DNA of 61,992 nucleotides, filler included, from Hausera hauseri (Eukaryota), in NCBI GenBank assembly GCA_046269625.1. It is 10 parts of 10 records of this genome, joined end to end, with 100 filler letters (N's around TTAATTAATTAA, not from the genome) between each part and the next. Parts side by side here need not be neighbours in the genome. Positions count along the whole stretch, not along the records: positions 25,142 to 29,984 come from JBJURY010416811.1; 9 more parts are not named here. One strand, given 5' to 3'. The notes below the pieces were generated by a model. The model saw only the letters and a program-made list of their open reading frames with translations. It ran no database searches and was not told where the DNA came from. This document shows positions 12,200 to 48,380 of this stretch, piece after piece. Numbering within the stretch: the stretch's first letter is position 1; every line of letters begins with the position of its first letter. The position numbers were made by a program, and so were the translations under genes.

Positions 12200-14420
12200 A
12201 GGTCAAATTAGACCAGACTAATGGTCGTCGACTGTGCTTCACCTTTCATACTTTATGTACTAACATTTCCAGGGTATGGTTGAAATATGGTAACCGTTTC
12301 ATGTTTGACGTCAAGTCAAGTGCATGGGCCTCTAGGTTAATTCGCAACGGTTGTTTGATGATGTAGTGGAAAAAAAACGTTTTCGTTAACTGACATTACA
12401 GACGGAACTAGCTGACCAAATTCGTAAATCGGTATTGTCGTAACAGTAAACTCATTCGATACGGAGAACAAGGTTCCATCACTGTTTAGGACAACGAGAG
12501 GGTAAATTTTCATCTGTTTACAAGTGAGCATTATTCGTTTCGATAGGAATGAATGTCTAATCGAATGCACCTTACCGTCTACATGAACCCTCGCATTGAA
12601 CTACAGCCTAACTCAAAGTCCGTGAATACCGCAGTTCAATCACAGTGTATTTTCCATTATCACACAATTCATACTCCAGTCCACCGAGTTATTTCCATCG
12701 TAATCGAATACAAACGGTGTCCACAACAAATCCACATCATACGCAACAACCATAAGACCAGTAAGATAAGTACTCTTGCTCTTCTGTTCCGAATTCTCCT
12801 TCACCGAATTGGTGAACTTTTTTCGTTGCAACATCAACAAGTGGCCAAAGTAATTGACGAGAATACTAGATAACGGTGAACTACCTTGACCATTGTACAG
12901 ATTCTGAGTTATTTCACAGTAAATTGATGATAAATCAACGGAGATCACGCATGCCGAAAATTCGACGTAACTCTCAAGGGAGAAGATCTGACAGAATTGT
13001 AAAGATATTGATCCTGACTCTGTACAGTGTATGTTATGTAGGCATATCGATCCATCAAGGGAAAGCGTGACGAATATGTTATTGTATAAATTAACAACTA
13101 GAATCTGTGATGGTACAGGCAAACTGAAACAACTTTCATCGTCGATCTTTTTTAATAAATAATAGTCTTAATTCGAAATTCTCTTTAATATTGTTATAAC
13201 ATGAAGCACAGATGAGATTTTTAAACCACACTGCAGCACCACAACTTCCATCGACTGTTCTTGTGTTTCATTGCTGCAGTCGCAATTTTTGAGTGTTTAA
13301 ATAAAATACGGCAAAGCCTTTTATTGCCAGAAACAAAAAAGCAGTTTCCATTTCGATTGACAGCTGCAAATTTAATCGGCCAATTAACATTTATATACGA
13401 CTCTGGGTAGTCTATTCGTTCCCATGGTGCCCCGTTGAGGCCAGCTGATTCCGTCGTCGAAAGAAGAAAGAAGACGAGCTGATGAGCAATAAATGCAGTT
13501 AATTATCAGTGATCTGCTTCCCTGACAGAGCCGATTTAGCAAACTGATAAATAACAATTTCGGGTTTTTTGATTTATTTTTCGACTCCCGAATAACCCAA
13601 AATGAATAGCGCTCGGTTCCCCATTCGAAATTAGATAGTCTCAAATAAATATTCCATTCCTGTCGGAGAGAACTGAATAACAGACATTTCTGTGATTACC
13701 ACAAACTGAACCCCTTGTTTTTTCCAACACAGCCAAACAATAGTAATCCGGTGACCATTTCAACGATATTACGGCACCGGTTTCCGTTTCGGCATCGGTG
13801 TATTCATTACAACATCTTCAGTCAGTGTTGGAGACGCCGTGCTCCGGTTTCATCATCGAAATTGTAAACGACACCTTCATCCATTTTTCCACCATATGCA
13901 ATAGAACGAAATTTTAAGTTCACTGCGGAACATGTCGCTCATCGAAGATTTTCGGCCCAAACAACAGAGACTTGTTCGGTGATGAGCTTATGTTTAGGAA
14001 TGTGTAAGAAGGCCGAACGGCCATTCTGAAACAAAATCGCTACACCGCTCAAACTGGGAAACCATTCCATTGCAGAACACTGGGAATCATCTTTTGTCAT
14101 ACTGTTAACTTTGGAAAATTCCAAATCCGTAAAGAACGAAACCAATCCCAATTTAATCTGTTGACTGTACAGAACCCTGCCATCCCATTTGATACGACTA
14201 AATGAAGCGTCGTCGATAGATACGATTGAATCTTCTCGATAAATACATAAGCAATTAATTTTCTTGCTGAATGAAATACTATTCACCAAAACAATTGAAC
14301 CGTTAGAAGGTTTCAAAGGCACCGTTAAATCATTTCCAATTAGTCCACTGGCACAGATTTTTTCTCTTGTTGCCAAATGCTCGTTCAAGCACTGCCTACG
14401 AAATCTACATCGGCATCGGG
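12200..14420 (-). pseudogene. RIC1: RIC1 (Rab6 GEF subunit, Rich) pseudogene or fragment
   Basis: Collinear RIC1 motifs: FFTDLE..., MEWFPSLSGVAILFQNGRSAFL, EQVSVVWAE..ATCSAVNLKFR, TGAVISLKWSPD, SILVNYFGHLLMLQR, HSFLSKRIML...IYPLVVL, LRINLEAHAL..LPYFNHTLEMLVHKV. Stops and frameshifts present. Confidence 0.85.
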
Positions 14421-17400: not shown

Positions 17401-17931
17401 ACGCATGATGACATTTCTCAAAATCAATTTTCATTTTTGACACTAATCTCAAGTCGCCAATTTGCTACAAATGACATTTTCAAAATCAGTTTTTATCTGA
17501 CACTAATCGCTTATTCTAATTAGATTTTACATTAATTGCTGAATCCAATAACACTAATCCAATTTACAATTACTTATTCCAATTAGATTTGCCACTAATC
17601 ACTCATTCCAATGACTCTAATCCAATTTACAAAAAAAGATAATTTGTGACTATTTTCTAAATTGTTATTCAAATAACATTAATTCAATTTACAAAACAAA
17701 ATACTAATTTACTAAATATATTTTAATCATAAATTGTTACTGCCGCATCACATTAACGTGGTTAACAATTTCATACAAACAACAACAAAGATGTGACACC
17801 CATAACTTAGGGTTTAACAAAAGAAGAAAGAATGAAAGAGAGGAAATTATAAAACAAGTGCTAATATCACGTATTGTTTTGCGTAATGTTTTTGTTACAA
17901 TGTTTGTCACGTGGCTTAACCGATCCTAACA

Positions 17932-19865
17932 TTTCTGCCCTTATGAGACAGGATTCGGTCCTCCGGATCACTTTGGGTACTGACAGCGATGAAGCTGAGA
18001 TTTCTGGGTCTAATTGTCAATGTCGCATCATTTACTGGATTCATCTAATGGCATAATCGTTGGGTACGGTTGTCGCAGGTATATGGTAAATGGTAGTAGA
18101 CTGATGGTTGACGGCAGTAAGGGCATGATATACCCTTATGAAATGTCATTCGAAATGCATCGTGTGGATCAATGGATTGAAGAAATTGAGAACGAAGTTT
18201 GCTGAAACATGTTGCACATAGATTATGATTTCATTGGAATTGGACCACTGTTATTCGTTCAGTAAGGCAAATCGTACACTCGTAAGTTGGAAGTTGATTG
18301 TAGAAGAGGATTTGCAATGTTGCCCAAAGGTCAAGCGGGGCTAGGTCGGAAATAAAGTCGATTTAACATCTATTTAGAACTGGGAACCAATCTTCTTGTA
18401 ATAATGATGGCAATGGGGGACTGAGATATAGTGGGTGTTGGAGTTATTGAAGGTGCAGGTACTGGCAATTCAGATAATGGTCTGATAATCCGCTCAGGAT
18501 GATAACGTAGATGCGGGATTGCAGATGGTTGATTCCAGTTAATAACAATGGGAACAGTATTCGGCATTACAGCAACTAAATCTGTAGGCTGTTTTATTAT
18601 GTTTTTGGCATAGACAACATATATGGAATTGTAAATATAGCATGGAGAAAGGGGTTGATACACCCCAAGAGTTTTAGCGTCCAGTAAGGATTGGTCAGCA
18701 TCAGATGGGAATGCGTCATGCTGGATACAATACTTAATTTCATATTTACAGATTGGGTAATAAGGCATAGGGTAAGCTTGTGATCGGGCTCGATCCATAC
18801 AATATAAGCAAAGAATATGCACGCATGGTGTTAATCTGTACACTACATTGAGGATTGCTCTGCATTCCATACATTATTGGAGGTCCGAAAATAAGTAGGA
18901 TCAATTAAGATTTAATTCAATGGTATTAAGATCTATACAACTGTCAGTATCTTCAATATACTCTGAGTTCGATAAGTAGTTATACAACTGTACTAATGAT
19001 GACGTATACGTATGGATGATGGTAGTATGTAATAATTGTTCACTTAAACGGATTATAAATACTGGATCTGTCGAGAAATTTGTAGTAATGGAGTGACAGC
19101 TAAGATTGAAGAAGCCATTGGTATTACTAGTAGGTAGTTTCAATGAGCATAAAAGTAGATCGAATTGTGTCGTTATAATAAATTTATACTTCAACATATT
19201 TTGTACGAGAGGTAAAAAATCTTTGTTATTGATTTTATTTAGGGTAAGATCATCTGTTATACCCGAAAAGAGTGTTCTCCAGTCAATAATTTTATTTCGG
19301 ATCTCGTCTTTATGATCCAATATAGCGATATCAATGATGGTTTGATTGATAATTGTCGGATTGGGCTGGGTAGTAACGTAATTATAGGCTAGGAAGGTGA
19401 ATGAGGGTTCTAAATCTGAAAGATAATCCTTCTGGTACTGAAACGTATTCATTTACTGATGAGAGTGGTTTGGTTATACGGATTAATTGCTCGTAGTCTT
19501 CATTGTGGGTGTATATAAGTTTTCGTTGTATCACTTATACAGCATATGTACAGTCGTTCGACGAAGAAATTGCAAAAGACAATAATTCCACAGGAGGGAT
19601 GGTAATAATGCCGCTACAGTTATCGAATAGTTCGTGATCAACATCGAATATAGGATCATTACAGTTAATATCGATAGTCAATTTGCCACTGATGAGATGT
19701 ATAGCTACAGTATCGAATTTTCGCGGCTGGTCGGTAAGAATCAGTTGAGATAACGAATTGGGGATATCAGTGGTTGTCTGTTGAATACACATTTGTCTGG
19801 AATAGAGCTGGCGTTTCTCAGACTTTAAGCTATTTGGGATAGCTGTTTTATTAGGAAAAACATAA
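17932..19865 (-). mobile_element. 3' end of a Gypsy-type element: unknown domain X, pseudo-exonuclease, RING, Pro-rich tail, degenerate PPT; LTR probably starts at 17931
   Basis: Homologous to the C-terminus of ORF 25142-29281. AAGGGCAGAAA|TGTTAGG on the minus strand. Confidence 0.7.
18745..18873 (-). pseudogene. C3HC4 RING finger
   Basis: CMEC-x12-CVHILCLYC-x12-(Y)PIC, with the seventh ligand mutated. Same frame as the upstream exonuclease-like ORF across two stops. Confidence 0.75.
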
Positions 19866-19965: not shown

Positions 19966-22900
19966 GTAATTTACGTAGTTTTGTAGTTTTTCTATCATTT
20001 TTTGGCCTTTTGTCTCGCCTATCTTAATTTTGAATTTTTTCATTTTTTTTTTGGCCCGGTCCCACCTTAACAAAATTTAGTTTTTCCACGAAAAAATTTG
20101 AAAATTTTCTGGATTTTTCTAGTTTGATTTTTTTGCGTGACTTACTTAATTTTGAAGTTTTTTTTACTATTTTGTGGTGTTTTGTCTCGCCTATATTAAT
20201 TTTGAATTTTTTCAATTGTTTTGGCCCGCTCCCTCTTTACCAAAATTTAGTTTTTCCATGAAAAAATTTGACATTTTTTGGTCTTTTCTAATTTGATTTT
20301 TTTGCGTGACTTACTTAATTTGGAAGTTTTTCTATCATTTTTTGGTCTTTTGTATCGACTATCTTAAATTTGTTTTTTTAAATTTTTTGGCCCGCTCGCC
20401 AGTTGCCAAAACTTGGTTTTTTGACGAAAATATTGAAATTTGTATGGTCTTTACTAATTTGAGTTTTTTGCGTGACGTACTTAATTTTGAAGTTTTTCTA
20501 CCATTTTTTGGTCTTTTGCTTTGGCCCGCTCCCCCTTTATCCAGATTTAGTTTTTCCACCAAAAAATTTGAAAATTTTCTGGTCTTTCCCAATTTGAGTT
20601 TTTTGCGTAACTTACTTACTTTCGAAGTTTTTCTCTCATTTTTCGGTCTTTTGTAACGCCTATTTTAATTTTGAATTTTGTCCCATTTTTTGTCCCGCTC
20701 GCCCCTTACCAAAATAATTTTTTCCACGAAAAAATTTGAAAATTATCTGGTCTTTTCCAATTTGAGTTTTTTGTGTGACTTCCTTACTTTTGAAGTTTTG
20801 CTATCACTTTTTGGTCTTTTGTCTCGCCTATCTTAATTTTGATTTTTTCAATGCTTTGGCCCGATCACCCCTTACCAAAATTTCGTTTTTCCACGAAAAA
20901 ATTTGAAAATTGTCTGGTCTTTTCCAATTTGAGTTTTTTGCGTGACTTACTTTCTTTTGAAGTTTTTCTATCATTTTTTGGTCTTTTGTAACGTCTATTT
21001 TAATTTTGAATTTTGTCAATTTTTTTGGCCCGCTCCCCGCTTACCAAAATTTAGTTTTTCCATGAAAAAATGTGAAAATTATCTCGTCTTTTCCAATGTG
21101 AGTTTTCTGCGTGACTTACTTACTTTTGACGTTTTTCTAACATTTTTCGGTCTTTTTTCTCGCCTATTTTAATTTTGAATGTTTTCAATTTTTTGGCCCA
21201 CTCCCCCTTTACCAAAATTTAGATTTTCCACGAAAAAATGTGAAAATTTTCTGGGCATTTCCAATTGAGTTTTTTGCGTTACTTCCTTACTTGTGAAGTT
21301 TTCTACCATTTTTTGGTCTTTTGTCTCGCCTATAATAATTTTGAATGTTTTCAATTTTTTGGCCCGCTCCCCCCTTATCAAGATATAGTTTTTCCACCCA
21401 AAAATTTGAAAATTTTTTGGTCTTTTCTAATTTGAGTTTTTTGCGTAACTTACTTACTTTCGACGTTTTTCTATCATTTTTTGGTCTTTTGTAACGTCTA
21501 TTTTAATTTTGGATTTTGTCAATTTTTTTGGCCCGCTCCCCGCTTACCAAACATTTGTTTTTCCATGAAAAAATGTGAAAATTATCTCGTCTTTTTTTAA
21601 TTTGAGTTTTTTGCGTAACTTACTTACTTTTGACGTTTTTCTAACATTTTTCGGTCTTTTGTCTCGCCTATTTTAATTGTGAATGTTTTCAATTTTTTGG
21701 CCCGCTCCCCCTTTACCAAAATTTAGTTTTTTCCACGAAAAAATGTGAAAATTATCTCGTCTTTTCCAATTTGAGTTTTTTGCATGACTTACTTACTTTT
21801 GACGTTTTTCTATCATTTTTTATTCTTTTGTCTCGCATATCTTTATTTTGAACTTTTTCATTGTTTTCGCCCGCTCCCCTTACAAAAATTTGGTTTTTCC
21901 ACGAAAAAATTTTAAAATTTTCTGGTCTTTTCCAATTTGCGTTTTTTGGGTAACTTACATACTTTTGAAGTTTTTCTATCATTTTTTTGGTATTTTGTCT
22001 CGCCTATATTAATTTTGAATTTTTTCAATTTTTTGGTCCGCTCCCCCCTTATCAAGATATAGTTTTTCCACCAAAAAATTTGAAAATTTTCTGGTCTTTT
22101 CCAATTTGAGTTATTTGCGTGACTTACTTATTTTTCAAGTTTTTCTACCATTTTTTGGTCTTTTGTCTCGCCTACATTAATTTTCAATGTTTTCGATTTT
22201 TTGGCCCGATCCCCCCTTACCAAAATTTGGTTTTTCCACGAAAAAATTTGAAAATTGTCTGGTCTTTTCCAATTTGAGTTTTTTGCGCAACTTACTTACT
22301 TTTGAAGTTTTTCTATCATTTTTTGGTCTTTTGTCTCGCCTATCTTAATTTTGAATTTTTTCATTTTTTTTTTTTTTTTGGCCCGGTCCCCCCTTAACAA
22401 AATTTAGTTTTTCGACGAAAAAATTTGAAAATTTTTTGGTCTTTTCCAATTTGAGCTTTTTGCGTAACTTACTTACTTTCGAAGTTTTTCTATCATTTTG
22501 TGGTCTTTTGTAACGTCTATTTTAATTTTGAATTTTGTCAATTTTTTTTTTGGCCCCCTCCCTGCTTACCAAAATTTACTGTTTCCATGAAAAAAATGTG
22601 AAAATTATCTCGTCTTTTCCAATTTGAGATTTCTGCGTGACTTACTTACTTTTGACGTTTTTCTAACATTTTTTCGGTCTTTTGTCTCGCCTATCTTAAT
22701 TTTGATTTTTTCAATGCTTTGGCCCGATCCCCACTTACCAAAATTTGGTTTTTCCACGAAAAAATTTGAAAATTGTCTGGTCTTTTCCGATTTGAGTTTT
22801 TTGCGTGACATACTTACTTTTGAAGTATTTTCTACCATTTTTTTGGTATTTTGTCTCGCCTATATTAATTTTGAATTTTTTCAATTTTTTTGGCCCGCTC

Positions 22901-25041
22901 CCCCCTTATCAAATATAGTTTTTCCACCAAAAAATTTGAAAATTTTTTGGTCTTTTCCAATTTGAGTTTTTTGCGTAACTTACTTACTTTCGAACTTTTT
23001 CTATCATTTTTTTGGTCTTTTGTAACGTCTATTTTAATTTTGAATTTTGTCAATTTTTTTGGCCCGCTGCCCGCTTACCAAACATTAGTTTTTCCATGAA
23101 AAAATGTGAAAATTGTCTCGTCTTTTCCAATTGGAGTTTTCTGCGTGACTTACTTACTTCTGACGTTTTTCTAACATTTTTCGGTCTTTTGTCTCGCCTA
23201 TTTTAATTTTGAATGTTTTCAATTTTTTGAACCGCTCCCCCTTTACAAAAATTTAGATTTTCCACGAAAAAATGTGAAAATTTTCTGGGCATTTCCAATT
23301 GAGTTTTTTGCGTTCCTTACTTAATTTTGAAGTTTTTCTACCATTTTTTGGTCTTTTGTCTCGCCTATGTTAATTTTGAATTTTTTCATTTCAATTGTTT
23401 TGGCCCGCTCCCTCCTTACCAAAATTTAGATTTTCCAAGAAAAAATTTGACATTTTTCTGGTCTTTTCTAATTTGATTTTTTTGCGTGACTTACTTAATT
23501 TGGAAATTTTTCTATCAATTTTTGGTCTTTTGTCTCGACTATCTCAATTTTGAATTTTTTCAATTTTTTTGGCCCGCTCCCCAGTTACCAAAACTTGGTT
23601 TTTTGACGAAAAAATGTGAAAATTTTCTGGGCATTTCCAATTTGAGTTTTTTACGTGACTTACTTAATTTTGAAGTTTTTCTACCATTTTTTGGTCTTTT
23701 GTTTTGGCCCGCTCCACCCTTATCCAGATTTAGTTTTTCCACCATAAAATTTGAAAATTTTCTGGTCTTTCCCAATTTGAGTTTTTTGCGTAACTTACTT
23801 ACTTTCGAAGTTTTTCTATCATTTTATGGTATTTTGTAACGCCTATTTTAATTTTGAATTTGGTCCCATTTTTTGGCCCGCTCGCCCCTTACCAAAATTT
23901 AGTTTTTCCACGAAAAAATTTGAAAATTATCTGGTCTTTTCCAATTTGAGTTTTTTGCGTAACTTACTTACTTTCGAAGTTTTTCTATCATTTTTTGGTC
24001 TTTCTTGTTGCCTATTTTAATTTTGAATTTTTTCAATGTTTTGGCCAGGTCCCCCCTTACCAAAATTTAGTTTTTCCACGAAAAAATTTGAAAATTGTCT
24101 GGTCTTTTCCAATTTGAGTTTTTTGCATAACTTACTTACTTTTGAAGTTTCTCTATCATTTTTTGGTCTTTTGTCTCGCCTATGTTAATTTTGGATTTTT
24201 TCAATTTTTTTGGCCCGCTCCCTCCTTACCAAAATTTGCTTTTTCCACGAAAAAATTTGAAAATTGTCTGGTCTTTTCCAATTTGAGTTTTCTGCGTGAC
24301 TTACTTACTTTTTACGTTTTTCTAACATTTCTCGGTCTTTTGCCTCGCCTATTTTAATTTTGAATGTTTTCAATTTTTTGGCCCGCTCCCCCTTTACAAA
24401 AATTTGGTTTTTCCACGAAAAAATTTTAAAATTTTCTGGTCTTTTCCAATTTGCGTTTTTTGGGTAACTTACATACTTTTGAAGTTTTTCTATCATTTTT
24501 TTGGTATTTTGTCTCGCCTATATTAATTTTGAATTTTTTCAATTTTTTGGTCCGCTCCCCCCTTATCAAGATATAGTTTTTCCACCAAAAAATTTGAAAA
24601 TTTTCTGGTCTTTTCCAATTTGAGTTATTTGCGTGACTTACTTATTTTTCAAGTTTTTCTACCATTTTTTGGTCTTTTGTCTCGCCTACATTAATTTTCA
24701 ATGTTTTCGATTTTTTGGCCCGATCCCCCCTTACCAAAATTTGGTTTTTCCACGAAAAAATTTGAAAATTGTCTGGTCTTTTCCAATTTGAGTTTTTTGC
24801 GCAACTTACTTACTTTTGAAGTTTTTCTATCATTTTTTGGTCTTTTGTCTCGCCTATCTTAATTTTGAATTTTTTCATTTTTTTTTTTTTTTTGGCCCGG
24901 TCCCCCCTTAACAAAATTTAGTTTTTCGACGAAAAAATTTGAAAATTTTTTGGTCTTTTCCAATTTGAGCTTTTTGCGTAACTTACTTACTTTCGAAGTT
25001 TTTCTATCATTTTGTGGTCTTTTGTAACGTCTATTTTAATT
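19966..25041. repeat. Tandem satellite, ~167-172 bp monomer, about 30 copies
   Basis: Recurring TTGTCTCGCCTAT...TTGGCCCGCTCCCC...TTCCACGAAAAAATTTGAAAA; anchor spacings of 172, 168, 168 and 167 bp. Confidence 0.97.
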
Positions 25042-25141: not shown

Positions 25142-28100
25142 GTCATAGCAGCCATATGGAGTATCACAGAGCAAGAAGAGTCATTACTACGAAAACAACG
25201 AAGTGACGAACAAATCAAACAAATTAAAGAATATTTAAAAAGGAAAACAATACCAAGTGATGTTAATCTTTATACCCATTTAAAACAGTTTGCTGAAAAC
25301 TATGAAACAAAGAATGATATATTGTATTATAATCACAAAGGAAAACTAGCTATAGTTGTTCCTCAAGAAGATATAAAGTTGCTGCTGACACAGTACCATG
25401 ATGGTATGATGGGAGGACACCAATCAATAAAAAGGACCTTAGGAAGATTGAAGAGAAAATATTATTGGTACACCATAACTAAGGATGTCCAAGATTGGTG
25501 TAAGAGTTGCCCAGTCTGTGCCACTAGAAAGAATACCGGTTCAAAAATTAGAGTCCCTCTCAAGCCAATAGAATGTCCACCGGCTCCTATGGAATTTTCA
25601 GCAATGGACATCCTGGGTCCATTGCCTCTAACGATTAATGGAAACAAATACATGTTGGTGTTTGTTGATCTATTTTCTAGATGGCCAGTTGTAATACCAA
25701 TACCAGATCAAAAGGCTCAAACTATTGCTCAAGCCTTCGTCGAAGAAATTGTTTTTAACTATGGTGCACCAACTAAATTACTAACGGATCAGGCACCCAA
25801 TTTCACAGGAGAAGTTATGGCAGAAATATCGAAAATATTTCAAATATTACAACTAAAAACTACTCCGTATCATCCTCAAACGAATGGAACAGTGGAAAGA
25901 TTCAACGGTATCTTAACTAACATGTTGGCCACTATGGTCAATGAACGACAAGATGATTGGGACGAATATATCAAGCCATGTTTATTTGCCATTAGAAATA
26001 CAATCCATCCGGCAACGAAAGAAACTCCCTTCTATTTGATGTATCTCAGAGATACTCACATGCCAATCGATTTAGACTTTAAAATGCCTGTCTCCCATTT
26101 GAAGAACGTGACGTATAAAGAGTTATTAGAAGAAAAATTAGGGTATGTATGGAGTTTGGCCTCACGTCATACGAAAATGTGTCAAAAAGAATATAAAAAC
26201 CGTTACGATGAAAAGGCTAAACCACATGACCTTAAACCTGGAGACAAAGTTATGCTACACACGCCATTAAGTAAGAAAGGCAGAACACCAAAGTTAGATA
26301 GACCATATAAAGGTCCCTATATGGTCCAGAAAGTAGATGAAACTAACATCTACTTAAACAAAAACAAAAGAAATAAAATGAATCCAATAAAAGTCCATGT
26401 GAACAGATGCAAGCCGGCACCAATAGAATCAAAAATAAGAAATGAGAGTTTTAGCCCATCGCTAATGGCAACACTGATGATGCTAATTTTAGTAACCAAT
26501 GTATCAGCCCAGTCCTTGGATGTGAATTATAAGGCCGTACAGGTTGGAAAATACCCTTGTATAAAAATTACGGCTAATCGAAACTTAACAATGGATGAAT
26601 ATATACACATATTCATATCGAAATTGCCGATAGTAGAAAAGGCAACACCAGAGAATTGTGATCTATATTATAACCATTCAATACACACCTGCTGTGGACT
26701 TTCATTCGGAGAAACGTACAGGATTCAATACGCAACGGGGAAAAGCGACCAGAGTTACAGAACATATTTCTCATACCCTGGTACCACACATTATTTTCAC
26801 CGACCATACTTTCTTATTTCATTCTATGCTAAGGTCATGAAGAATGGACCTTGCGTAACGGCAGAACCAGATGTCATAATTACAAGGTATACAAAGTTCA
26901 AGTATATAATATTTGACGGAACTAACAGTATAGACTGTGAACCGAATTATCAAGATCCATATAAATGTTGCCCTATCGTTTTTAACAAACAATATACGAT
27001 ATACTACTGGACCACGTATAACGGTTATACATGGTCAAAAACAGCAGATGGTCCAGAGATAACTGTAAGATCTCCGGTAAAGGTAACCCCTATTTCGACA
27101 ACCAAAACAATTGCCTCAGTAACAAAACCAAGTATACCAACTATATTACAAAAAGTAGTAACTACACCAATAATAGAACCTAAGAAGGATATTAAAGAGT
27201 TGGATATAATTATCCAACCAACAAGTCACTCATTAATTATTACAGTGCTCAACCTGAAGAATACAAACATAAAATTCGAGTGCAACCTCAACCACAGAGT
27301 GATTAGCGAAGGAGTTTTAACTCCCGAAGAACCAACATCTGTATGTATGTTCTTAAAATCTGACACAAATTATAAAGTCGTCATAACAGAATTAGATGAC
27401 GAAGGAGAAAAATTACGAACAGTTTCTCGGACCGAAAAGACCTTAAAACTAATAACAACTACCTCAAAAGCTATGCAAAAAGTAATTACACAAAAACTGG
27501 AACAAAATTCGAACAAAAATCTTTGGATAATTAGTACGTTATGCGTCCTCCTAATATTACTAGCCATATTGTTACCTTTAGTAATTTATTGTTCGAAAAT
27601 AAGACAACGACAGCATAGGATAAGGGAAATGTTAGATCAATTAAAAATTTTAAGGGAAGATTCCCAGGTATCGTCACAAGACGTAAGTGCGCCTTTCCTA
27701 GAAAACCAACGACAAGTTGAAAGACTTATCGACCAAGAGCGGCAGATCCAACCGTTGAAAGACACAACCATATGTCTTTGCATAAAAATCCATGACCAGG
27801 CCGCAAAATTCCTAGCGACCTATATTAAAAAACGACAATCGAAATATGATAAAATCCTTTTTTGTAAAACCGCTTGGCTAATATTAATATTTTTATTTTT
27901 AGTCCAAGAAGGTGCAGAACGAACTGAAAGACCCAACTCCTTCTATAACCATATTTTATCCAATTTATGGGCCACCTCCAATAAAGATTATTGCTATTAT
28001 GGAAGAGCCGTTTTTATTCCCAACAATCTCAAGGGCTATTCAGTCCAGCAAAGAAGTAGCCTTATAATCAAGGTCCGACAAAGTTCGACTAATCTCTCTG

Positions 28101-29281
28101 ATCTCATCGATACCTCCGGACACACCTATGCCATATATATCTCTGTGGCTAAAGGAACCATCCAGCTCAAAAGCAAGTCCCACTCCAATGGAATCACAGA
28201 TGTAATGGAAGTTTTAACCCGCGTAACAATCCGTCTGGACCCTCGATTGTACGCAAATGCCACGATTACCATACGGACATGCCGAGAAGTGTTCCCAATA
28301 ATCTTTTTAGAAGTCATAAAGAAGGACTTAATCCCACGCTTAGATTACGAAATTCCCAAATACTCTACTCCCAAACCAAAAGAACTTGATGTAGAACAAG
28401 GACTGTCATTCGCAAGAAGACTAATAACATCAAAAGAGGAAATGTTAATAATGGCCGTAAATCCAATATATCTATTCACCCCTATCAGGAATACCGAAAT
28501 GACTACGGTGGAAGTAACCCTAATGGACTTAAATGGAAAAGTTATTTTGGATGAGATTCTATGTCCTAGAGAAAAGATCGATAATTACAACAGCCATGTA
28601 ACCGGACTAAAAGAAGATAATATTATTGGGAAAAAGGACTCGTATCATGAAGAACCTTTCATCAGGAAAATAATCATCGGGAAAATAATCATAGGCATTG
28701 ATGTTTACCACATCTTTGCTTCTATTTTTAGATATGACTACAACAATTTATTGGGGATTAGAGAATTGTTGTACCACGATAATGTTAATCCCCAACGCAT
28801 ATTCTCAGCCAAACAGATCTTCACCCAGTACAATAATAACATATACCCTCAAAGAACAAAAGAGAAAGCAATTACAATATTAAAGATTTACAACTCCATT
28901 CCAGAGTATCAAAATGAACAATTTCAAACTCCAATGGATGTGCAAGAATCTACAGACACTTCATCAATTGCCACCTGTTCAACATCTACCCAATCCGCCA
29001 ATAATCAAATATCAATTTCTTCAAGAGACAGTCATATTAATTTGAATCCATTAACAATAGCAAGTTCCTCAGAATCGATTGTCGTTGACCTAACCAAAGC
29101 CTCAAAGAAGAAAAAGAAAATTCCAAAAACCGAAACAATAACCCTAAAGAAACAGATTAAAAAAAGAGGACGACTACTCCATATCAAGTCTGTTGACTAT
29201 CAGGACTCTAATGGTGTTATTGAAGCTTACCCTCTGATGCTGTGGACAGCATCGTCTAAGGAGGGAGAAGATGTGCAGTAG
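25142..29281 (+). CDS. Gypsy pol 3' end, 5'-partial: integrase fused in frame to signal peptide, three FN3-like domains, TM, domain X and REX4-like pseudo-exonuclease
   Basis: Open from contig start. HDGMMGGH...CPVC; AMDILGPLP; LTDQA; YHPQTNGTVERFN; YKGPY; MATLMMLILVTNVSA|QS; LWIISTLCVLLILLAILLPLVIYC; VEVTLMDLNGKVILDEILCPREKIDNYNSHVTGL. Confidence 0.9.
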   Translation, partial: VIAAIWSITEQEESLLRKQRSDEQIKQIKEYLKRKTIPSDVNLYTHLKQFAENYETKNDILYYNHKGKLAIVVPQEDIKLLLTQYHDGMMGGHQSIKRTLGRLKRKYYWYTITKDVQDWCKSCPVCATRKNTGSKIRVPLKPIECPPAPMEFSAMDILGPLPLTINGNKYMLVFVDLFSRWPVVIPIPDQKAQTIAQAFVEEIVFNYGAPTKLLTDQAPNFTGEVMAEISKIFQILQLKTTPYHPQTNGTVERFNGILTNMLATMVNERQDDWDEYIKPCLFAIRNTIHPATKETPFYLMYLRDTHMPIDLDFKMPVSHLKNVTYKELLEEKLGYVWSLASRHTKMCQKEYKNRYDEKAKPHDLKPGDKVMLHTPLSKKGRTPKLDRPYKGPYMVQKVDETNIYLNKNKRNKMNPIKVHVNRCKPAPIESKIRNESFSPSLMATLMMLILVTNVSAQSLDVNYKAVQVGKYPCIKITANRNLTMDEYIHIFISKLPIVEKATPENCDLYYNHSIHTCCGLSFGETYRIQYATGKSDQSYRTYFSYPGTTHYFHRPYFLISFYAKVMKNGPCVTAEPDVIITRYTKFKYIIFDGTNSIDCEPNYQDPYKCCPIVFNKQYTIYYWTTYNGYTWSKTADGPEITVRSPVKVTPISTTKTIASVTKPSIPTILQKVVTTPIIEPKKDIKELDIIIQPTSHSLIITVLNLKNTNIKFECNLNHRVISEGVLTPEEPTSVCMFLKSDTNYKVVITELDDEGEKLRTVSRTEKTLKLITTTSKAMQKVITQKLEQNSNKNLWIISTLCVLLILLAILLPLVIYCSKIRQRQHRIREMLDQLKILREDSQVSSQDVSAPFLENQRQVERLIDQERQIQPLKDTTICLCIKIHDQAAKFLATYIKKRQSKYDKILFCKTAWLILIFLFLVQEGAERTERPNSFYNHILSNLWATSNKDYCYYGRAVFIPNNLKGYSVQQRSSLIIKVRQSSTNLSDLIDTSGHTYAIYISVAKGTIQLKSKSHSNGITDVMEVLTRVTIRLDPRLYANATITIRTCREVFPIIFLEVIKKDLIPRLDYEIPKYSTPKPKELDVEQGLSFARRLITSKEEMLIMAVNPIYLFTPIRNTEMTTVEVTLMDLNGKVILDEILCPREKIDNYNSHVTGLKEDNIIGKKDSYHEEPFIRKIIIGKIIIGIDVYHIFASIFRYDYNNLLGIRELLYHDNVNPQRIFSAKQIFTQYNNNIYPQRTKEKAITILKIYNSIPEYQNEQFQTPMDVQESTDTSSIATCSTSTQSANNQISISSRDSHINLNPLTIASSSESIVVDLTKASKKKKKIPKTETITLKKQIKKRGRLLHIKSVDYQDSNGVIEAYPLMLWTASSKEGEDVQ
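29258..29271 (+). promoter_or_regulatory. Polypurine tract; putative 3' LTR starts at 29272
   Basis: AAGGAGGGAGAAGA|TGTGCAG overlapping the ORF end. An alternative PPT lies at 29808-29817. Confidence 0.65.
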
Positions 29282-30520
29282 TCTAAAATAAACAATTTGA
29301 TTGAAATAACGATCGTTTATTTGACTTTCAGAGTGATTCAAAATAGACTGATTATTTGGCTTTTAAATTGAATAATAAATTATCCATGAACTAAATGTAA
29401 TTTAATTTATTCTTGATCCATGATTAAATTGATTTCTGTTTTCTTTTGGTCTGCAATAATTGGTTTTTATTTATCATATAAATTTCCTGTGGTGGTAGAT
29501 AAGTATATATACTGGTGTCATTTACACAATTTTTATAACTTTTTGACGAGGACAATTCTCATGATGATGAACCATGCTTATGACAATTGTGAGTTTTTAT
29601 TTCATTTGTTTATTGCGTTTTGATTGTCGTTAGATTATCGTATTCATAATTGTGATTAAATATTTTATCTTAATCTTTTTCTTATTTTCATTTATAAATA
29701 ATTAATTAAGAGTATTGTATTGTAATAGGCATAAAATAACACAAATATATAAACCCTTTTGGTATACCTTCCTTTAATACAGGTCGGTTGTTTAATCTAC
29801 GATAAATAAAGGGGGAGTGACGTCGGTGTACCTCCCGACCGAGCTCATACATTAAGGAAAAGTAAATTAAACTTAATCCTTGAATTTCGGCAGACCCACA
29901 GGCTGCCGAATACCTTGATTAATTAAACAGAACTTGGGACAAGGAGAGGGCCCAAGTTAAGTATCGATAGTATAAGTTTAAGGTNNNNNNNNNNNNNNNN
30001 NNNNNNNNNNNNNNNNNNNNNNNNNNNNTTAATTAATTAANNNNNNNNNNNNNNNNNNNNNNNNNNNNNNNNNNNNNNNNNNNNTACTTCAGGAGATAAA
30101 TTGTGAAATTCCTAACAGAAGTACCCACAGGCTGCACTGGAGGTGCTACAGCTAATACTGCTGCCGCTAGTTGTGTTTGCATATCACTACAGAAATTTGC
30201 AAAATTGTTTAAGATGGCAGTAACCTTCTTTAGTCTATGCTATGCTTTAACTAGCCATTAGCTCATTTGTTCAGAGAACTAAAACAGGTAAGATATTATT
30301 TGTTCAAAACCTTTCCAGAGAACCCCACTTTAAAGTACTTTTTAAAGATACATTTTCCAATTTCAAAAAACAACACAAATATTTTAAAAAAGTTAGGTCG
30401 TACTCAGACCAGGAAATTCCTTTGGTCCGCTTGTTTGGTCCGAACAAAAAGTAGGCTTTATATCTATTTTTGTTTTGAATAATTTATAATTCTGAATATT
30501 TTTAAAGTATTTTCATTCAG

Positions 30521-30733
30521 ACAGTTATGTAAAAATAAATGTCTGTACCGATGCTGGCTACCAATTAGCTCGTTTCAATACTAAAAAAGTCTCAAATGAA
30601 ATGCATCCTTCTTTCAATGAAACGTTTTCCGTTGATGTTCCACATTTTCAAATAAATGGGATCACAGTACTCATAGCTCCATATAATAAAGTTAGTTTGA
30701 TAAGCAAGGATATGATCGGATGGATTGCAATGG
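30521..30733 (+). CDS. Internal exon encoding a C2 domain, synaptotagmin-14/16-like
   Basis: ttcag| ... |gtatgt; DSYVKINV...HPSFNETFSVDV...YNK.SL..KDMIGWIAMG resembles SYT14/16 C2B. Confidence 0.75.
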
Positions 30734-31142
30734 GTATGTATGTTTCTTTAATTACCTTTTGTTTAATAAACTTTTCACATGCACCTGTTGTTTCAAATGA
30801 GAATGATTATTTATATGAAATAGATTTCGAATTGTAAATGGGTTGTATAATCAAAAATGGACAAAATGACTGATGCTACAAATGATCAAAACTAATAAAT
30901 CATGGGTACCTAAATACAAAGACCAATGAAACGATTACATATATTTCTATCCTAAAACGTTGTGTTTGCCGAAACATCAATCAAAAATGTTGCAGAATCT
31001 TTTTAATACTTTTTATTTTTCATACAAATATACTGAAGGAAGGAACAATTATAATAATCAATCAATAAACAAAAGGAAACTGAAATTGTTTGAAAATAAA
31101 ATAATGAACATTTTTCAACGAATTGGATGAATATGCATTTAA

Positions 31143-32054
31143 CACATTGACGGACACATGCGTCTATAGTCGTCAAAGCGAAGTTCACTATGTGGCATGA
31201 CGGCAATAGCCGTCCAAAATGAAACGGTCGTTTGTAGACACTGCAGCTATAGCGGCACAAATGTGCATTTATCGGCGTACAAGTGTCATGTTTTGGAAAC
31301 AATTTTTTTAAGTTGAATTTCGTTTTCCACCTGTTACACGACTTTACAGCTTCAGTATGTACGCGGCTGTGAAGGGAGTAGTGCGATGTAGCACTGTGGA
31401 ATTCTTACTACATCTTTAAAGAAAAGACAAGTTCTCAAATGAGGTTTATAGAATACAGGGAAGCAATCATACGATCTCTAACTGGTATAGATTATAAACA
31501 GGATGGAAGGTCTTTGGTTCAATTTAAACGTGCACGAATCCAAACCAATGAAATCAACTACAATGGAACACAGCATTTTCCTGAGAAAATTTCTCCTGAA
31601 AATTACCAGCGAAAAACATATTTTCAGCGTTGTAAACAATGTTATAAACAGGGAATAAGGAAGGAAACATCATATTGCTGCAAGAATTGCATGTCAAAAC
31701 CTGCACTGTGTCCTGCACCATGCTTTGAAACATGGCATACCGATAATAATGTGTAATAATTATAAACTTATAATAAATTTTTTTGTCATTTATTTATTTT
31801 TGTTTGATTATAAACTAACATTTCGTGTAAAACTCCCAAAAGCACTTTGTTGCACACAAAAAATTGCTTATTTGAGTCATTAAACCTGTCATTTACGCTT
31901 TTAAAATTTTGCTGTTATAGCCGCCATCGTCCCGTTACTTAGTGTCTGGAGTCCGCTGGCGCCATGACGATTATAGCGGCAACCTAATTAAAGGTGTTGA
32001 ATTAATCACAATTAATCAATAACTATATACTTGTTCCTACTGTCCGTCAATGTG
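31143..32054 (+). mobile_element. Non-autonomous piggyBac, internally deleted, retaining the transposase C-terminal Cys-rich domain (31439-31756)
   Basis: TTAA on both sides; perfect 14-bp TIR CACATTGACGGACA / TGTCCGTCAATGTG; RCKQC..KETSYCCKNC..PALC.APCFETWH. Confidence 0.92.
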
Positions 32055-38394: not shown

Positions 38395-40154
38395 ATGCAG
38401 GTAATTGTGACTTAGTAACATCAATTAAAATTCGTAAATTATTGGCGGAATTTATGAAAGAATTGTAATTAGGATAATTTACGTGCGGCGGTATTGAGGT
38501 GGTTCCGCTGTAAATGCCCAACGGTGGGATGGCGGATTTGTCAACGATGACAAGTCCAATCGACGGAAACGTCAAAAGCTCTCCAGTTGTTTGGAGTTGT
38601 CGAAGAATGGAAGGAATTTCCATCTTTGTTAAATTGTTTATGGAATCTGTGATACTGGCACTTGCAAAAACTTGAGTTTGAGCAGCTTTTGTAGTTTCAA
38701 GAGCAATTTTCATATCTTCAGTTTGTTTAAAAGGTAAATGTTTGTACATGTTATTTGTAAGTTGTCGAAAATTTTCCTTGAGAATTAACTGAATGAGATC
38801 GTATGTGGTTGTCATGTTACTTCTTTGTTTGCGAATTAATTCTTTTTGCCTTTTATTTATAAAGGTGCCAGATTCAGCAATAAGATCCATTTTACCAACA
38901 GCCACGACTTAATGGTATTTATAAATTTAACTCCATGGGAGGCTTGCTCGAGATTTCTTCTGGATTCGAAAGTACTTTTAAGTAATAGGATGCTTCTTTC
39001 TAGATTTTCGTCTTGGTACAAAAGTTTGTAGTCAAGGAAAGGCTTAAGAATCATTGGGTCAGTGAGAAATTTTTTATATGGTTCAGGCCTGTTTGAGATT
39101 TTCAATGCTACTCCAAGAATGTTTGCTTGATTGTCGGCTACTTCTGTCATGGATGCTAACTTGGTAATAACTACTTTGTTGATTCTTTCCACTAGGTCTT
39201 TAACAGCATTGAATTTTGAACTGAAGTTAGTAATAATTTCGTCAATGCTTGCTTTTATAGTCGATTCGGATATTGACGCAACATAACACATTGAGCATTT
39301 TGGATCATTTCTGTTCCGTCCGATAAGATCAACAGAAATTCTTTCAGAATCTGATGTCAATAAAGTTTGAGCATAGCACCACTGGTCAATAAAATCCTTG
39401 CTTACACATTTCGAATAATTTTCTTGGTTAAGGTGCTCTTTCATGTTAACATTTCGATCGACAAATATCGTTTTCAAGGACGTTACTAAATTTTCAATTG
39501 ACTCAGTGCTGGGTTTTACTTCAATGGCTAAAATTTGGATGACTGAAGAATAAGTCACTCCGCGAATGAAGTCTAAAGCTTTAATAATGTTAAATTCATT
39601 AAATAATGGACTTTCAACGTCCAAAACAATGACAAACATTGAACGACCAACTATGAAAGGAACCATAAAACTCGTTGGGCAAAATAGCTGAATAATGTTA
39701 ATTTTAGTATCACAAAGTGTCCATGCATTTGGCTCGAATATAATTGGAGTTTCTTCTTTTCGAACTTTGAAAGAACAGGTTTTAATGTAATGACCAATGT
39801 CATATTTAAAATTTAGATCTATTGAGAGAATCACTAAGTTTGTTGGTAATGTCTCTGCACTGGTTGCTTCTCGAAATAATGATTGGCTGAAAATTGGATC
39901 AGTTGCCCACAGTTTCTCCGTACAACCATCCAATATTAATTCTTTAATATTCGGAAAATACTGAGCCAATATTTCAATACCTAGATCTGTTAAATGACAG
40001 CAACAAGTTAAATTTATTGACATGATATTTTCCTTTTGGTTTGATTAAGTTCTTGCTTCAAAACAAAGAACACTTCGTCGGAAAGTTGATCAATGCCACT
40101 AAAGTCGAGGGTTATTAGATCTTTAGATGGTCCAATGAGTTTAGTGATGGATTT
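38395..40154 (-). pseudogene. LRR plus degenerate Roc/COR-like (Roco-like) gene fragment, frameshifted
   Basis: LDFSGIDQLSD, INLTCCCHLTDLGI, LILDGC (LRR); RSMFVIVLDV (Roc-like strand); AVGKMD; LQTTGELLTF...LVIVD (COR-like). Confidence 0.45.
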
Positions 40155-46100: not shown

Positions 46101-48380
46101 CCAGATCTCTAACGGCGTCGACAAACCATAAGAATTTTACTTCAGAAAACGTACACAACCCGAAAGCCGTTACTCAACATTTGACATTGAGTTACCCGCC
46201 ATAGTTTTGGCAATAAAACATTTCACATACCTACTTCTGTCTTGTCCATTTGTCATTTAAACTGATCACAAGCCTCTCTGATATCATGTAGTTAAAACAG
46301 CCATCACCGAGGCAAGAACGACATATATCATACCTGTCTACATTCAGTTTCGTTTTAGAATACATCTCGGGTACAGACAATTTGGTAGCAGATTTTCTAT
46401 TGAGGTCGGTTGGCTCCATTACAGTTGAGCCGATTTTCTCATTCGAAGTTCTAAAGGCCAATCAACCGCATGCTGACTTCCTTGCCTCTTTCAAATCCTT
46501 CGAAATCATTGATGGCATTGCTTTTAATACGTCGAATTCCGGTAATAAAAGATCATTCTAACTCCACCTTTACAAAAGCCAGCCTTCCTTTATACGCATT
46601 CACTCCATCATTCGGGTTCGAAAGCCACCTTTCGCCTGCTTCAACGTCAAGTAGTTTGGCCATCAATGCGCAAAGATGTGCAGGGCCGAGTTAAGGAATG
46701 CATAGCCTTTCAAAAATACAAAATCAACAAACACCTTAAACCGTCCCTTTACCATTTCCCCAGCACATCACGTTTTCATACAGTTCATCTTGATTTCGTT
46801 GGCCCTTTACCTTCTGACCACGGATATAAATATATCCTTACTATGATGGATCGTCCTCGCTGGCCTGAAACCGTTGCTCTCCGTTCAACGAACCATGATT
46901 CAGTAGCTGATGCATTTGTAAAAATCTGGATCAGTCGTTTTTGTTCCCCACATTACATAATAACGGATCAAGGTCCACAATTTGAGTCGGACCTCATCAA
47001 ATCATTGTCAAACGCCTAGGGATATCCCATTTTCATACAACATCATATCATCCTCAAGCGAATGGCCTCCTTGAAAGCTTCCATCGAACAATGAAAATAT
47101 CTATAAAAATCTTGGCTGACAATCATCGTAATTGGACGTCCATTCTAACATTTGTTCTACTAGGGTGGCGCAACACATTCTCTACCATTACCGGTTGTGT
47201 TGCAGCCGAGGCACTCTTTGGAACTCAAGTTCGTGCCTTATTCGAAATTTCTGATCTCGACGACAACCCCACAGAAGAAAACAATCGTGCAGCACAGTCT
47301 CACTTTGTCGAGGTCAGCTCAGAATCCTTTTGCCGTCTATTCAACAATAACAAATCGTACATTCCGAAGGATTTATACACCACCAAGTTTGTTTGGCTGA
47401 AAGATAAATCGCCTTCTGGTTTTAGACCTCAATATGTTGGCCCATACAAACTGATGAATCTCTCATCTCATACAGCAACCATTTTATGCCAAGATATACC
47501 TTACAACATCCACAATTCGAATGTGAAGCCCGTTTTCTTCATTGATGACAATCTGGATGCCAATTCTACCTCCAATTCAAATTCAACTCCTACTCCTTCT
47601 GATTTTCTAAATCACTTTGAGCCATTACAACAATCACTTTCTTGTCCCTCTCTTTCATCATCTCCTCCACCTTTTTCATCTCCATTACTTACATCGACTG
47701 TTTCATCGCCTTCAATTGCATCGCCTCTTTTGCTTGACTTATACTCCTCAACACCCTCATCAGTTTCATCACGAGCAACACCACGCACTGAATCAGATAA
47801 TCACACAAAACTTCCATCACAAATGTCACTCAACAGCCAAGCACAAATCAATCAAGTAAGGCACGCAGAGTGATATTTAGCAATTACAGCAAAGAAAAGT
47901 GCTTCGATGGTACACAACGCCTGACACATACCAAAACCGAATAGGCACTAAATATTGTTCCTCTGTTATTTCATTGTTTTCATCTTGATTATCCCGTTGT
48001 TTTAACCTTTACATAGTTTGTCTTCTGGCACGGGGGGTTGATGTGGTGCCGCGGTCGCGGGCGCGAATTGTGTTAATGGGGCAATTCATCAGAAAGTATA
48101 TCAGAAGATACAGCAGCTCAAGAGAAATTGACAGTTCAGAAAGTGACAATCAGAGCTCAAAACTAATCATTCGTTCGGTAGATACATGTCATGCAGTTCA
48201 TTTCAAACCTAAAATTGATACGTCATCTCGCACTTCTACGAATTTCCTTTCTAGCCTACAAAAGTTGTGAAATCGCTGAATAAAGCTTTATCTCTCGTAT
48301 GACGTGATCTTGTATCGTGTGATGCCTGTTTGCAGTTCTTTTTTTATTTGACTATCATATTATATATATATTTGTACATA
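43145..48380 (+). mobile_element. Gypsy (CsRn1-like) copy C: Ubl-gag-PR-RT-RH-IN-PPT-3'LTR, decayed
   Basis: LHFRLRGE; CIYH..Y...ARSCVPGC; FLIDSQA; IDMHKAYHQIP; YIYD; TTDAS; VHLDFVGPLP, ITDQGPQFES, YVGPY; G-run at 48032-48037, then TGTGG at 48042. Confidence 0.92.

What the first reader, a model, noticed from the sequence alone, without database searches (positions are those of the whole stretch)
27990..29281. Retroelement-borne unknown beta-rich domain plus catalytically dead REX4/ISG20-like exonuclease
Seen: 28441-28900 matches the DEDDh REX4-type pattern (VTLMDLNGKVILDEILCPREKIDNYNSHVTGL...IRKIIIGKIIIG versus VSIVN..G.VLYD.YVKP.E.VTDYRT.VSGI...LL.GRILVGH). The ExoI ALDCE motif is replaced by MAVNP. 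It is preceded by an unassigned ~110-aa beta-rich domain and followed by a Ser/Thr tract and an NLS-like KKKKK. Inference: a pseudo-nuclease acting as an RNA-end binder, silencing suppressor or decoy.
Basis: partly seen in the sequence, partly recalled or inferred. Interest (0 to 1): 0.75.

Follow-up and report, generated by a model that had tools for sequence, protein, structure and literature searches.

The report
Retrotransposon-borne dead REX4-like exonuclease cassette
A gypsy-type retrotransposon carries, just before its 3' end, an unassigned domain joined to a relative of the REX4/ISG20 RNA-trimming enzymes that lacks all five catalytic residues yet stays conserved across copies, and a second, very distant and broken element nearby has the same pair, so it is likely an old accessory protein that would bind RNA rather than cut it.

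Summary
Observation confirmed, with corrections. 27990 is not a gene start: the region is the last third of one stop-free 1,379-codon frame (25142-29281) running gypsy integrase, then an env-like membrane protein, an unassigned domain, the exonuclease-like domain, and a Ser/Thr and Lys tail, into a purine tract and LTR start at 29272. The domain at 28442-28909 is a REX4/ISG20-type DEDDh homologue (ISG20 E=1.5e-4; profile score 28.4 bits vs at most 9.5 in 1,000 shuffles). All five catalytic positions are replaced: Asn1107, Ile1109, Ile1191, Gln1237, Lys1242. Related copies show 25 of 40 listed differences synonymous against 33% expected (p=1e-4), with no stop or indel listed. New here: a second, broken element in the window (19864-18901, minus strand) has the same two-domain cassette (z=6.6), then RING-like ORFs. 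Function is inferred, not shown: likely an RNA-binding pseudo-nuclease accessory protein (0.4). New variant of a known kind (rotifer LTR elements carry intact DEDDy ORFs).

The parts
25142..29281 (+). One stop-free reading frame of 1,379 codons, open at the 5' contig edge; gag, protease, RT, RNase H and the 5' LTR are not in this contig
25358..26416 (+). Ty3/gypsy-type integrase (H2C2 zinc finger, D-D-E core, GPY-like C-terminus)
   Evidence: Pfam Integrase_H2C2 E=1e-19, rve E=2e-13; Ty3 Gag-Pol 7q5b E=7e-26, top of 16 PDB hits; motifs located
26462..27595 (+). Env-like type I membrane protein: signal-peptide-like segment (26462-26509), ectodomain with two related Cys-containing repeats, Thr-rich stalk and a third domain, transmembrane helix (27527-27595); no match to F- or gB-type envelopes
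   Evidence: hydropathy; repeats A/B z=4.5, 0 of 500 shuffles; no significant Pfam or PDB hit; no R-X-K/R-R site in the ectodomain
27596..27904 (+). Tail of the membrane protein and a second short hydrophobic stretch that coincides with a splice-acceptor-like site (branch-point-like motif, T-rich tract, AG at 27901-27902)
   Evidence: most T-rich of 261 AG sites in the frame; splicing not shown
27905..28423 (+).
   Evidence: 28% identity over 157 columns to 19864-19409, z=4.8, 1 of 1,000 shuffles; no usable Atlas, Pfam, PDB, NCBIfam or PHROGs hit
28442..28909 (+). REX4/ISG20-type DEDDh pseudo-exonuclease: Asn1107 (28460), Ile1109 (28466), Ile1191 (28712), Gln1237 (28850) and Lys1242 (28865) stand at the five catalytic positions
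   Evidence: selection
28925..29191 (+). Ser/Thr-rich linker and Lys/Arg-rich, NLS-like tail (KKKKK at 29105-29119)
   Evidence: NLS function inferred
29258..29271 (+). Polypurine tract (14 purines)
   Evidence: sequence
29272..29984 (+). 3' LTR-like segment starting with TG; the stop codon lies in its first 10 bases; cut by the contig end
   Evidence: a run X1 contig begins exactly at 29272, and the 12 listed indels all fall at 29675-29880; partner LTR not available
18901..19864 (-). Element 2: broken, distant copy of the same cassette (unassigned domain with a stop and a frame change, then an exonuclease-like ORF at 18901-19452 with no Asp or Glu in the first strand)
   Evidence: REX4-like profile E=6e-4, second of 1,113 window ORF pieces; hhalign E=2.7e-5; cassette z=6.6, 0 of 1,000 shuffles
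17930..18873 (-). Element 2 downstream part: two RING-like ORFs (18370-18873, 18045-18230), a purine-rich tract at 17942-17932 and TG at 17931
   Evidence: Pfam RING hits E=0.02 and 3e-4, both below the curated cut-offs; sequence

Best explanation
This is the accessory gene of a gypsy-type LTR retrotransposon, made of an unassigned domain plus a REX4/ISG20-type exonuclease domain that lacks all five catalytic residues and is conserved across copies, and it likely works as a nucleic-acid-binding protein that would shield the element's RNA from host 3' trimming or small-RNA silencing. Shown: position between integrase and the purine tract, homology, the residue replacements, purifying selection, and sharing with a second distant element. 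Inferred: (1) capture long ago of a REX4-family gene from a host or a large DNA virus; (2) loss of catalysis before the two families split; (3) expression as a soluble cytosolic or nuclear protein from a spliced RNA using the acceptor-like site at 27902, or by cleavage from the polyprotein; (4) binding of structured or 3'-terminal RNA, with the basic tail adding affinity or nuclear import.
For: Homology. A model guided by 7 REX4-like rows (pLDDT 70.7) matches ISG20L2 (E=7e-8, TM 0.72) and ISG20 first. Dead site: the first strand has no Asp or Glu between residues 1101 and 1118, so the ExoI Asp is missing in every register tried. The ExoII and ExoIII registers are clear (scores 20.2 vs next 7.2, and 12.8 vs next 3.6). 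Selection: 25 of 40 listed differences are synonymous against 32.7% expected (p=1e-4, crude dN/dS 0.29), with 0 stops; most of the 15 replacements are conservative. All 40 rows appear in both runs and no indel is listed. The Asn1107 codon varies synonymously in 11 X1 and 5 X2 contigs. Age: the same cassette in element 2 at 28% identity in the unassigned domain. Precedent: catalytically dead ISG20 still binds the HBV epsilon stem-loop (PMC5388505, passages); PML's PXL pseudo-exonuclease binds G-rich RNA and DNA (PMC13659232, abstract).
Against: No binding, expression or splicing data. The domain is net neutral (K+R 18, D+E 18), although the five active relatives are also near neutral. It keeps only 10 of 38 family-invariant columns, and basic ones are replaced at 1221 and 1244. 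The structural match is partly circular because REX4-like rows guided the model; the single-sequence model failed (pLDDT 30.3). The selection count uses the 40 best-supported of 112 differences, unpolarised, from contigs at least 80% alike, and X1 may be the source sample. No rows were listed at the ExoIII codons, so their state in other copies is not shown. If the frame is made as one polyprotein, the second hydrophobic stretch could place the cassette in the lumen. Element 2's integrase is not in its contig and its ExoI register differs between alignments.
Confidence: 0.4

Rival explanations
1. The dead domain is a protein-binding decoy or adaptor. It mimics a host REX4-type exonuclease and ties up its partners, or brings host defence proteins to a ubiquitin ligase such as the RING-like ORFs of element 2.
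For: Hydrophobic core columns are kept conservatively while catalytic and several basic columns are lost; net charge is neutral. RING-like ORFs follow the cassette in element 2. Planarian Burro elements carry ubiquitination- and apoptosis-related domains (PMC6431247, passages).
Against: Element 1 has no RING ORF between the cassette and the LTR. The RING hits are below Pfam cut-offs. No partner is identified.
Confidence: 0.25
2. The whole frame is one polyprotein cut by signal peptidase. The second hydrophobic stretch acts as a signal, and the cassette is a lumenal or particle-surface structural module that works with the env-like protein.
For: No stop in 4.1 kb; the 27600-27905 linker stays open in only 0.1% of base shuffles. 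Two N-glycosylation sequons lie in the unassigned domain, which has a weak Fn3 hint (E=0.085). An in-frame env region is described for Burro (PMC6431247).
Against: The hydrophobic stretch overlaps the best acceptor-like site of 261, and its last 25 codons are open in 11% of shuffles. The cassette has 3 Cys and a basic NLS-like tail. The unassigned domain shows no likeness to the ectodomain repeats (z below 0).
Confidence: 0.15
3. A captured host gene decaying as a neutral passenger.
For: Very low identity to REX4-like proteins (12-26%); element 2's copy is broken; no outside homologue found.
Against: Synonymous excess, no stops and no listed indels; 0 gaps against 379 summed mismatches in 16 listed, overlapping pieces; a collinear cassette in two families at 28% identity.
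Confidence: 0.08
4. The domain is still a nuclease, with a rearranged site that uses nearby acids (Asp1187, Glu1241, or Glu1099/1100).
For: An untrimmed MAFFT alignment and the all-column ungapped score put Glu1100 under the ExoI Glu. Asp1187 and Glu1241 exist near the site.
Against: That register still puts Lys at the ExoI Asp and needs a 10-residue insertion. With the catalytic columns ignored, the A-V-N-P-I register ranks first, though narrowly (4.4 vs 3.7). Asp1187 and Glu1241 align to ISG20 D90 and E153, not to D94 and D154. Single D11, D94 or D154 changes abolish ISG20 activity (PMC7756014, passage).
Confidence: 0.05

Closest known systems
DEDDy exonuclease ORF3 of bdelloid rotifer LTR retrotransposons Juno and Vesta, and of Athena/Terminon elements (PMC5408684)
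   Same: A DEDD-superfamily exonuclease gene carried downstream of pol in an invertebrate LTR element and shared between distant retroelement families.
   Different: Those are RNase D-like DEDDy with invariant residues reported intact, in a separate ORF3 without TM domains. This one is REX4/ISG20-type DEDDh, lacks all five catalytic residues, is fused to an unassigned domain, and lies in frame behind integrase and an env-like protein.
REX4/REXO4, ISG20, ISG20L2 DEDDh exonucleases (cluster F.5 in PMC3985635; PDB 1wlj, 7yw5)
   Same: Sequence and predicted fold, including the conserved central block between ExoI and ExoII and the spacing of the three Exo motifs.
   Different: No catalytic Asp, Glu, Asp, His or Asp; 12-26% identity to the REX4-like rows; carried by a mobile element.
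Cellular DEDD pseudo-nucleases: PML PXL (PMC13659232), Maelstrom (PMC7968707), EXD1 (named in PMC5408684)
   Same: A dead DEDD fold kept by selection and used for nucleic-acid binding.
   Different: Those are host genes from other DEDD subfamilies, and Maelstrom and EXD1 act in piRNA silencing; this one is encoded by the transposon.
KolobokD DNA transposons with a DEDDh exonuclease (PMC9587614)
   Same: A DEDDh accessory domain in an invertebrate transposon.
   Different: A DNA transposon; similar to exuperantia, TREX and ERI1 rather than REX4; presumed active.
Errantiviruses (PMC13524379) and Burro giant gypsy elements (PMC6431247)
   Same: A gypsy element with a membrane protein after pol; in Burro, a multi-domain polyprotein with in-frame env and accessory domains.
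   Different: The ectodomain here shows no F or gB match and no furin-type site. No exonuclease is mentioned in the errantivirus survey's main text (0 occurrences).

Membership tests
DEDDh exonucleases, REX4/ISG20 group | Sequence homology to the group | tested here: met
   (28.4 bits vs a maximum of 9.5 in 1,000 shuffles); Pfam RNase_T itself not hit
DEDDh exonucleases, REX4/ISG20 group | DnaQ-like fold | tested here: met
   alignment-guided model pLDDT 70.7; top Foldseek hits ISG20L2 and ISG20, TM 0.69-0.72; partly circular
DEDDh exonucleases, REX4/ISG20 group | ExoI Asp and Glu | tested here: not met
   Asn1107 and Ile1109; no acid in residues 1101-1118
DEDDh exonucleases, REX4/ISG20 group | ExoII Asp | tested here: not met
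   Ile1191 aligns to ISG20 D94
DEDDh exonucleases, REX4/ISG20 group | ExoIII His and Asp | tested here: not met
   Gln1237 and Lys1242
DEDDh exonucleases, REX4/ISG20 group | 3'-5' exonuclease activity | not testable with these tools
   needs an assay
Ty3/gypsy LTR retrotransposons | Integrase with H2C2 finger, D-D-E core and GPY/F-type C-terminus at the end of pol | tested here: met
Ty3/gypsy LTR retrotransposons | Polypurine tract followed by an LTR starting with TG | tested here: met
   29258-29273; a contig of run X1 starts at 29272
Ty3/gypsy LTR retrotransposons | gag, PR-RT-RH-IN order, paired LTRs, primer site | tested here: inconclusive
   the contig starts at the integrase after an assembly linker; no second copy in the window; no whole genome held
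Errantiviruses | Envelope of F type or gB type | tested here: not met
   no Pfam or PDB match and no furin-type site; by sequence only, the ectodomain was not folded
Bdelloid-type DEDDy ORF3 | RNase D-like DEDDy domain with intact catalytic residues | tested here: not met
   best matches are REX4/ISG20-type and the residues are absent
Nucleic-acid-binding DEDD pseudo-nucleases | Demonstrated RNA or DNA binding | not testable with these tools
   needs binding assays

The most novel reading that the evidence does not exclude
An old, undescribed lineage of gypsy elements carries a complex-retrovirus-like 3' module: a membrane protein that is neither F nor gB type, an orphan domain fused to a dead REX4-type nuclease, and in some families RING ligases. 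Together they form a transposon-encoded counter-defence that shields element RNA or sends host silencing factors for degradation.
Probability: 0.2. Interest if true: 0.8.

Novelty: new variant of a known kind. Interest (0 to 1): 0.55.

Why it matters
Few animal retrotransposons are known to encode counter-defence proteins, and the role of their captured exonuclease genes is open (PMC5408684 leaves it untested). A REX4-type domain that lost catalysis, yet is kept under purifying selection and shared by two families only about a quarter identical, says the useful property is binding, not cutting. It gives a small soluble protein on which to test whether a retrotransposon protects its RNA or blocks silencing.

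Tried and rejected
No homologue found: word-index protein searches with 27989-28921 (0 of 973 candidates at E<=0.01, lengths 171-545), residues 430-1265 of the whole frame (0 of 6,888, lengths 758-2414), and the exonuclease domain alone (0 of 34 at E<=10, lengths 91-293). These need shared 5-residue words, so they do not show absence. The HMMER search of all representatives was never available, so the range of the cassette outside this genome is open. Pattern scans found no relative in viral contigs or, for the exonuclease domain, in metagenomes. 9 distant integrase loci have no match at E<0.5 to any post-integrase part. The phage tblastn gave 8 records, all at E>=2. NCBIfam, PHROGs, Pfam and PDB name neither the unassigned domain nor the ectodomain; the Atlas gave no usable hit for the unassigned domain. 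The single-sequence fold of both domains was unusable. VIA structural alignments did not complete. No RNA holder was listed, which is no evidence on expression. Summed depth falls from integrase to the cassette; this was not used, since depth is not copy number. Element 1 against element 2 is weak with BLOSUM62 (z=1.8 and 2.7; BLASTP E=0.19) and clear only with BLOSUM45 and both domains together. Of 42 motif-pattern loci and 6 alignment-scan loci, 6 distinct full and 2 partial REX4-like proteins emerged; one near-duplicate (L040) was dropped, leaving 7 rows. Weak viral fold hits (adintovirus, ichnovirus; E 0.08-0.23) were not taken as evidence. The host species was not determined.
Full report
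Setting. The window is a string of short contigs joined by 100-base linkers; the finding lies in the contig 25142-29984. No whole genome is held. The host was not identified. An animal is inferred from gypsy and DDE elements and exon-sized host-gene pieces.

The frame. 27990 is not a gene start. One frame is open from the contig edge at 25142 to the stop at 29279-29281, 1,379 codons. In order it encodes: a gypsy integrase (Pfam H2C2 E=1e-19, rve E=2e-13; Ty3 Gag-Pol best of 16 PDB hits); a signal-like segment; an ectodomain with two related Cys-containing repeats (z=4.5, 0 of 500 shuffles); a transmembrane helix; a tail; a second short hydrophobic stretch; the unassigned domain; the exonuclease-like domain; and a Ser/Thr tract with a Lys-rich tail. 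A 14-base purine tract at 29258-29271 is followed by TG at 29272. A contig of run X1 begins exactly there, and the 12 listed indels (of 27) all fall in 29675-29880. The domains therefore lie inside an LTR element, between integrase and the 3' LTR. The 5' half of the element is missing from the contig.

Homology. The domain at 28442-28909 finds ISG20 (E=1.5e-4) and ISG20L2 (E=1.5e-3) in the PDB, and RNase_T-family clusters in 28 of 30 Atlas hits; Pfam gives nothing. To get full-length references I fetched REX4-like genes by motif scans and confirmed them against ISG20L2 and ISG20 (E=3.5e-42 and 8e-37). A profile of 7 of them ranks this frame first among 1,113 window ORF pieces (E=1.5e-6) and scores the domain 28.4 bits against a maximum of 9.5 in 1,000 shuffles. 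A model built on that alignment reached pLDDT 70.7 and matched ISG20L2 and ISG20 first (TM 0.72 and 0.69). This is partly circular; the unaided model failed.

The active site. Against ISG20 D11, E13, D94, H149 and D154 (numbering read from the alignments; D11, D94 and D154 named as catalytic in PMC7756014; E13 and H149 as catalytic from recall and from the family columns), the protein has Asn1107, Ile1109, Ile1191, Gln1237 and Lys1242. The ExoII and ExoIII registers win by wide margins. The ExoI register is less sharp: an untrimmed alignment and the all-column score prefer a register nine residues upstream that keeps one Glu. That register still has Lys at the Asp and needs a 10-residue insertion, and the strand has no acid from 1101 to 1118.

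Selection. 134 contigs of run X1 and 44 of X2 lay on 28430-28900, mostly under 90% alike, with no indel listed. Of the 40 best-supported differences (112 in all), 25 are synonymous against 32.7% expected from the same change spectrum (p=1e-4; crude dN/dS 0.29), none is a stop, and most replacements are conservative. The Asn1107 codon changes synonymously in 11 and 5 contigs. For the whole frame, 26 of 39 listed differences are synonymous against 30.4% expected (the 40th row lies outside the frame). Over the unassigned domain, 5 listed pieces of 251-350 bases carry 32-69 mismatches each and no gap. Limits: a subset, unpolarised, no rows listed at the ExoIII codons, and X1 may be the source sample.

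A second element. The same profile found a second hit in the window, ORF 18901-19452 on the minus strand (E=6e-4; hhalign E=2.7e-5). Upstream lies a frame, broken by a stop and a frame change, that aligns with the unassigned domain (28% over 157 columns; z=4.8). Read with X at the breaks, the two-domain cassette aligns collinearly (z=6.6, 0 of 1,000 shuffles with BLOSUM45; the single domains are weak with BLOSUM62). Its first strand also lacks acids. Two RING-like ORFs follow (E=0.02 and 3e-4, below cut-off), then a purine-rich tract and TG. Its integrase is not in the contig, so its identity as an LTR element is inferred. The cassette is thus older than the split of two very distant families; loss of catalysis before that split is likely but not proven, because element 2 has decayed.

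How it is made. The second hydrophobic stretch overlaps a T-rich tract, a branch-point-like motif and AG at 27901-27902, the most T-rich of 261 AG sites in the frame. A spliced RNA entering here would give a soluble protein with a basic tail; ORF3s of LTR elements are typically expressed from spliced messages (PMC5408684). The alternative is one polyprotein: the 27600-27905 linker is open in only 0.1% of shuffles, but its last 25 codons in 11%. No RNA run was listed, so this is untested.

Mechanism. A fold kept under selection without its catalytic residues must be kept for binding. I favour nucleic acid (0.4): dead ISG20 still binds a structured viral RNA (PMC5388505), PXL is a nucleic-acid-binding pseudo-exonuclease (PMC13659232), and the tail is basic. 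Against this, the domain is neutral and keeps 10 of 38 invariant family columns. A protein decoy or adaptor (0.25), a lumenal structural module (0.15), a neutral passenger (0.08) and a rearranged active nuclease (0.05) are the rivals.

Comparison with what is known. Exonuclease ORFs in LTR elements are described for bdelloid rotifers, as intact DEDDy enzymes (PMC5408684), and a DEDDh domain in KolobokD DNA transposons (PMC9587614). Two unchecked earlier notes of this scan report Rrp6-like ORFs in other genomes, one called dead; they lower the novelty of the kind and were not tested. Nine literature searches listed no paper whose title or abstract start describes a REX4-type or catalytically dead exonuclease encoded by a retrotransposon; the library lacks most subscription papers, and Repbase was not searched. 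What I saw of each paper: PMC5408684, parts 1-3 of 5 (abstract to discussion); PMC6338049, part 1 of 4; PMC13524379, abstract, a term search and the first part of section 5; PMC13659232, abstract and outline; PMC7968707, PMC9587614, PMC6431247, PMC7756014, PMC5388505 and PMC3985635, passages. No supplements were read; the element lists in those of PMC13524379 could bear on novelty.

Verdict. A real feature: a retrotransposon-borne, selected, catalytically dead REX4/ISG20-type domain fused to an orphan domain and shared by two distant elements. It works like a pseudo-nuclease by inference and is not a member of the active DEDDh family. New variant of a known kind; interest 0.55. Its range beyond this genome and its function remain open.

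Noticed in passing
window 18901-19864 (-) and 17930-18873 (-): A second, broken element with the same two-domain cassette, two RING-like ORFs, and a purine tract plus TG; 62-63 nt repeats at 17505-17714 lie in its LTR-like part.
   Followed up: yes
window 26462-27595 (+): Env-like type I membrane protein with two related Cys-containing repeats, in frame with integrase, matching no known envelope; joints in all four runs laid show a related subfamily with the same layout. It may be a new kind of envelope or a captured receptor-like protein.
   Followed up: partly
whole window: The window is a string of short contigs joined by nine 100-base linkers (44 N, 12 bases, 44 N), so neighbours across linkers are not known to be adjacent.
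   Followed up: yes
window about 20000-25041: Five kilobases of T-rich, apparently repetitive sequence with strong AT skew, -0.37 to -0.41; it looks like a diverged satellite, but no repeat finder was run on it.
   Followed up: no
window 5348-6244 (+), 8385-9125 (-), 45279-45941 (+), 46986-47873 (+): Reverse transcriptase and integrase fragments of other retroelements.
   Followed up: no
window 12640-13167 (-), 30496-30837 (+), 31382-31756 (+): A RIC1 beta-propeller-like piece, a C2-domain piece and a DDE_Tnp_1-like zinc finger: likely host exons and a DNA transposon fragment.
   Followed up: no
window 38857-40044 (-): A 395-codon open frame with no Pfam hit at E<=0.001.
   Followed up: no
L010, L011, L012, L040, L041, L044: Intact REX4/ISG20-type genes with all three Exo motifs on IMG/VR contigs, five of them 91-466 kb and one labelled GVMAG: large DNA viruses carry this family and are a possible donor route.
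   Followed up: partly
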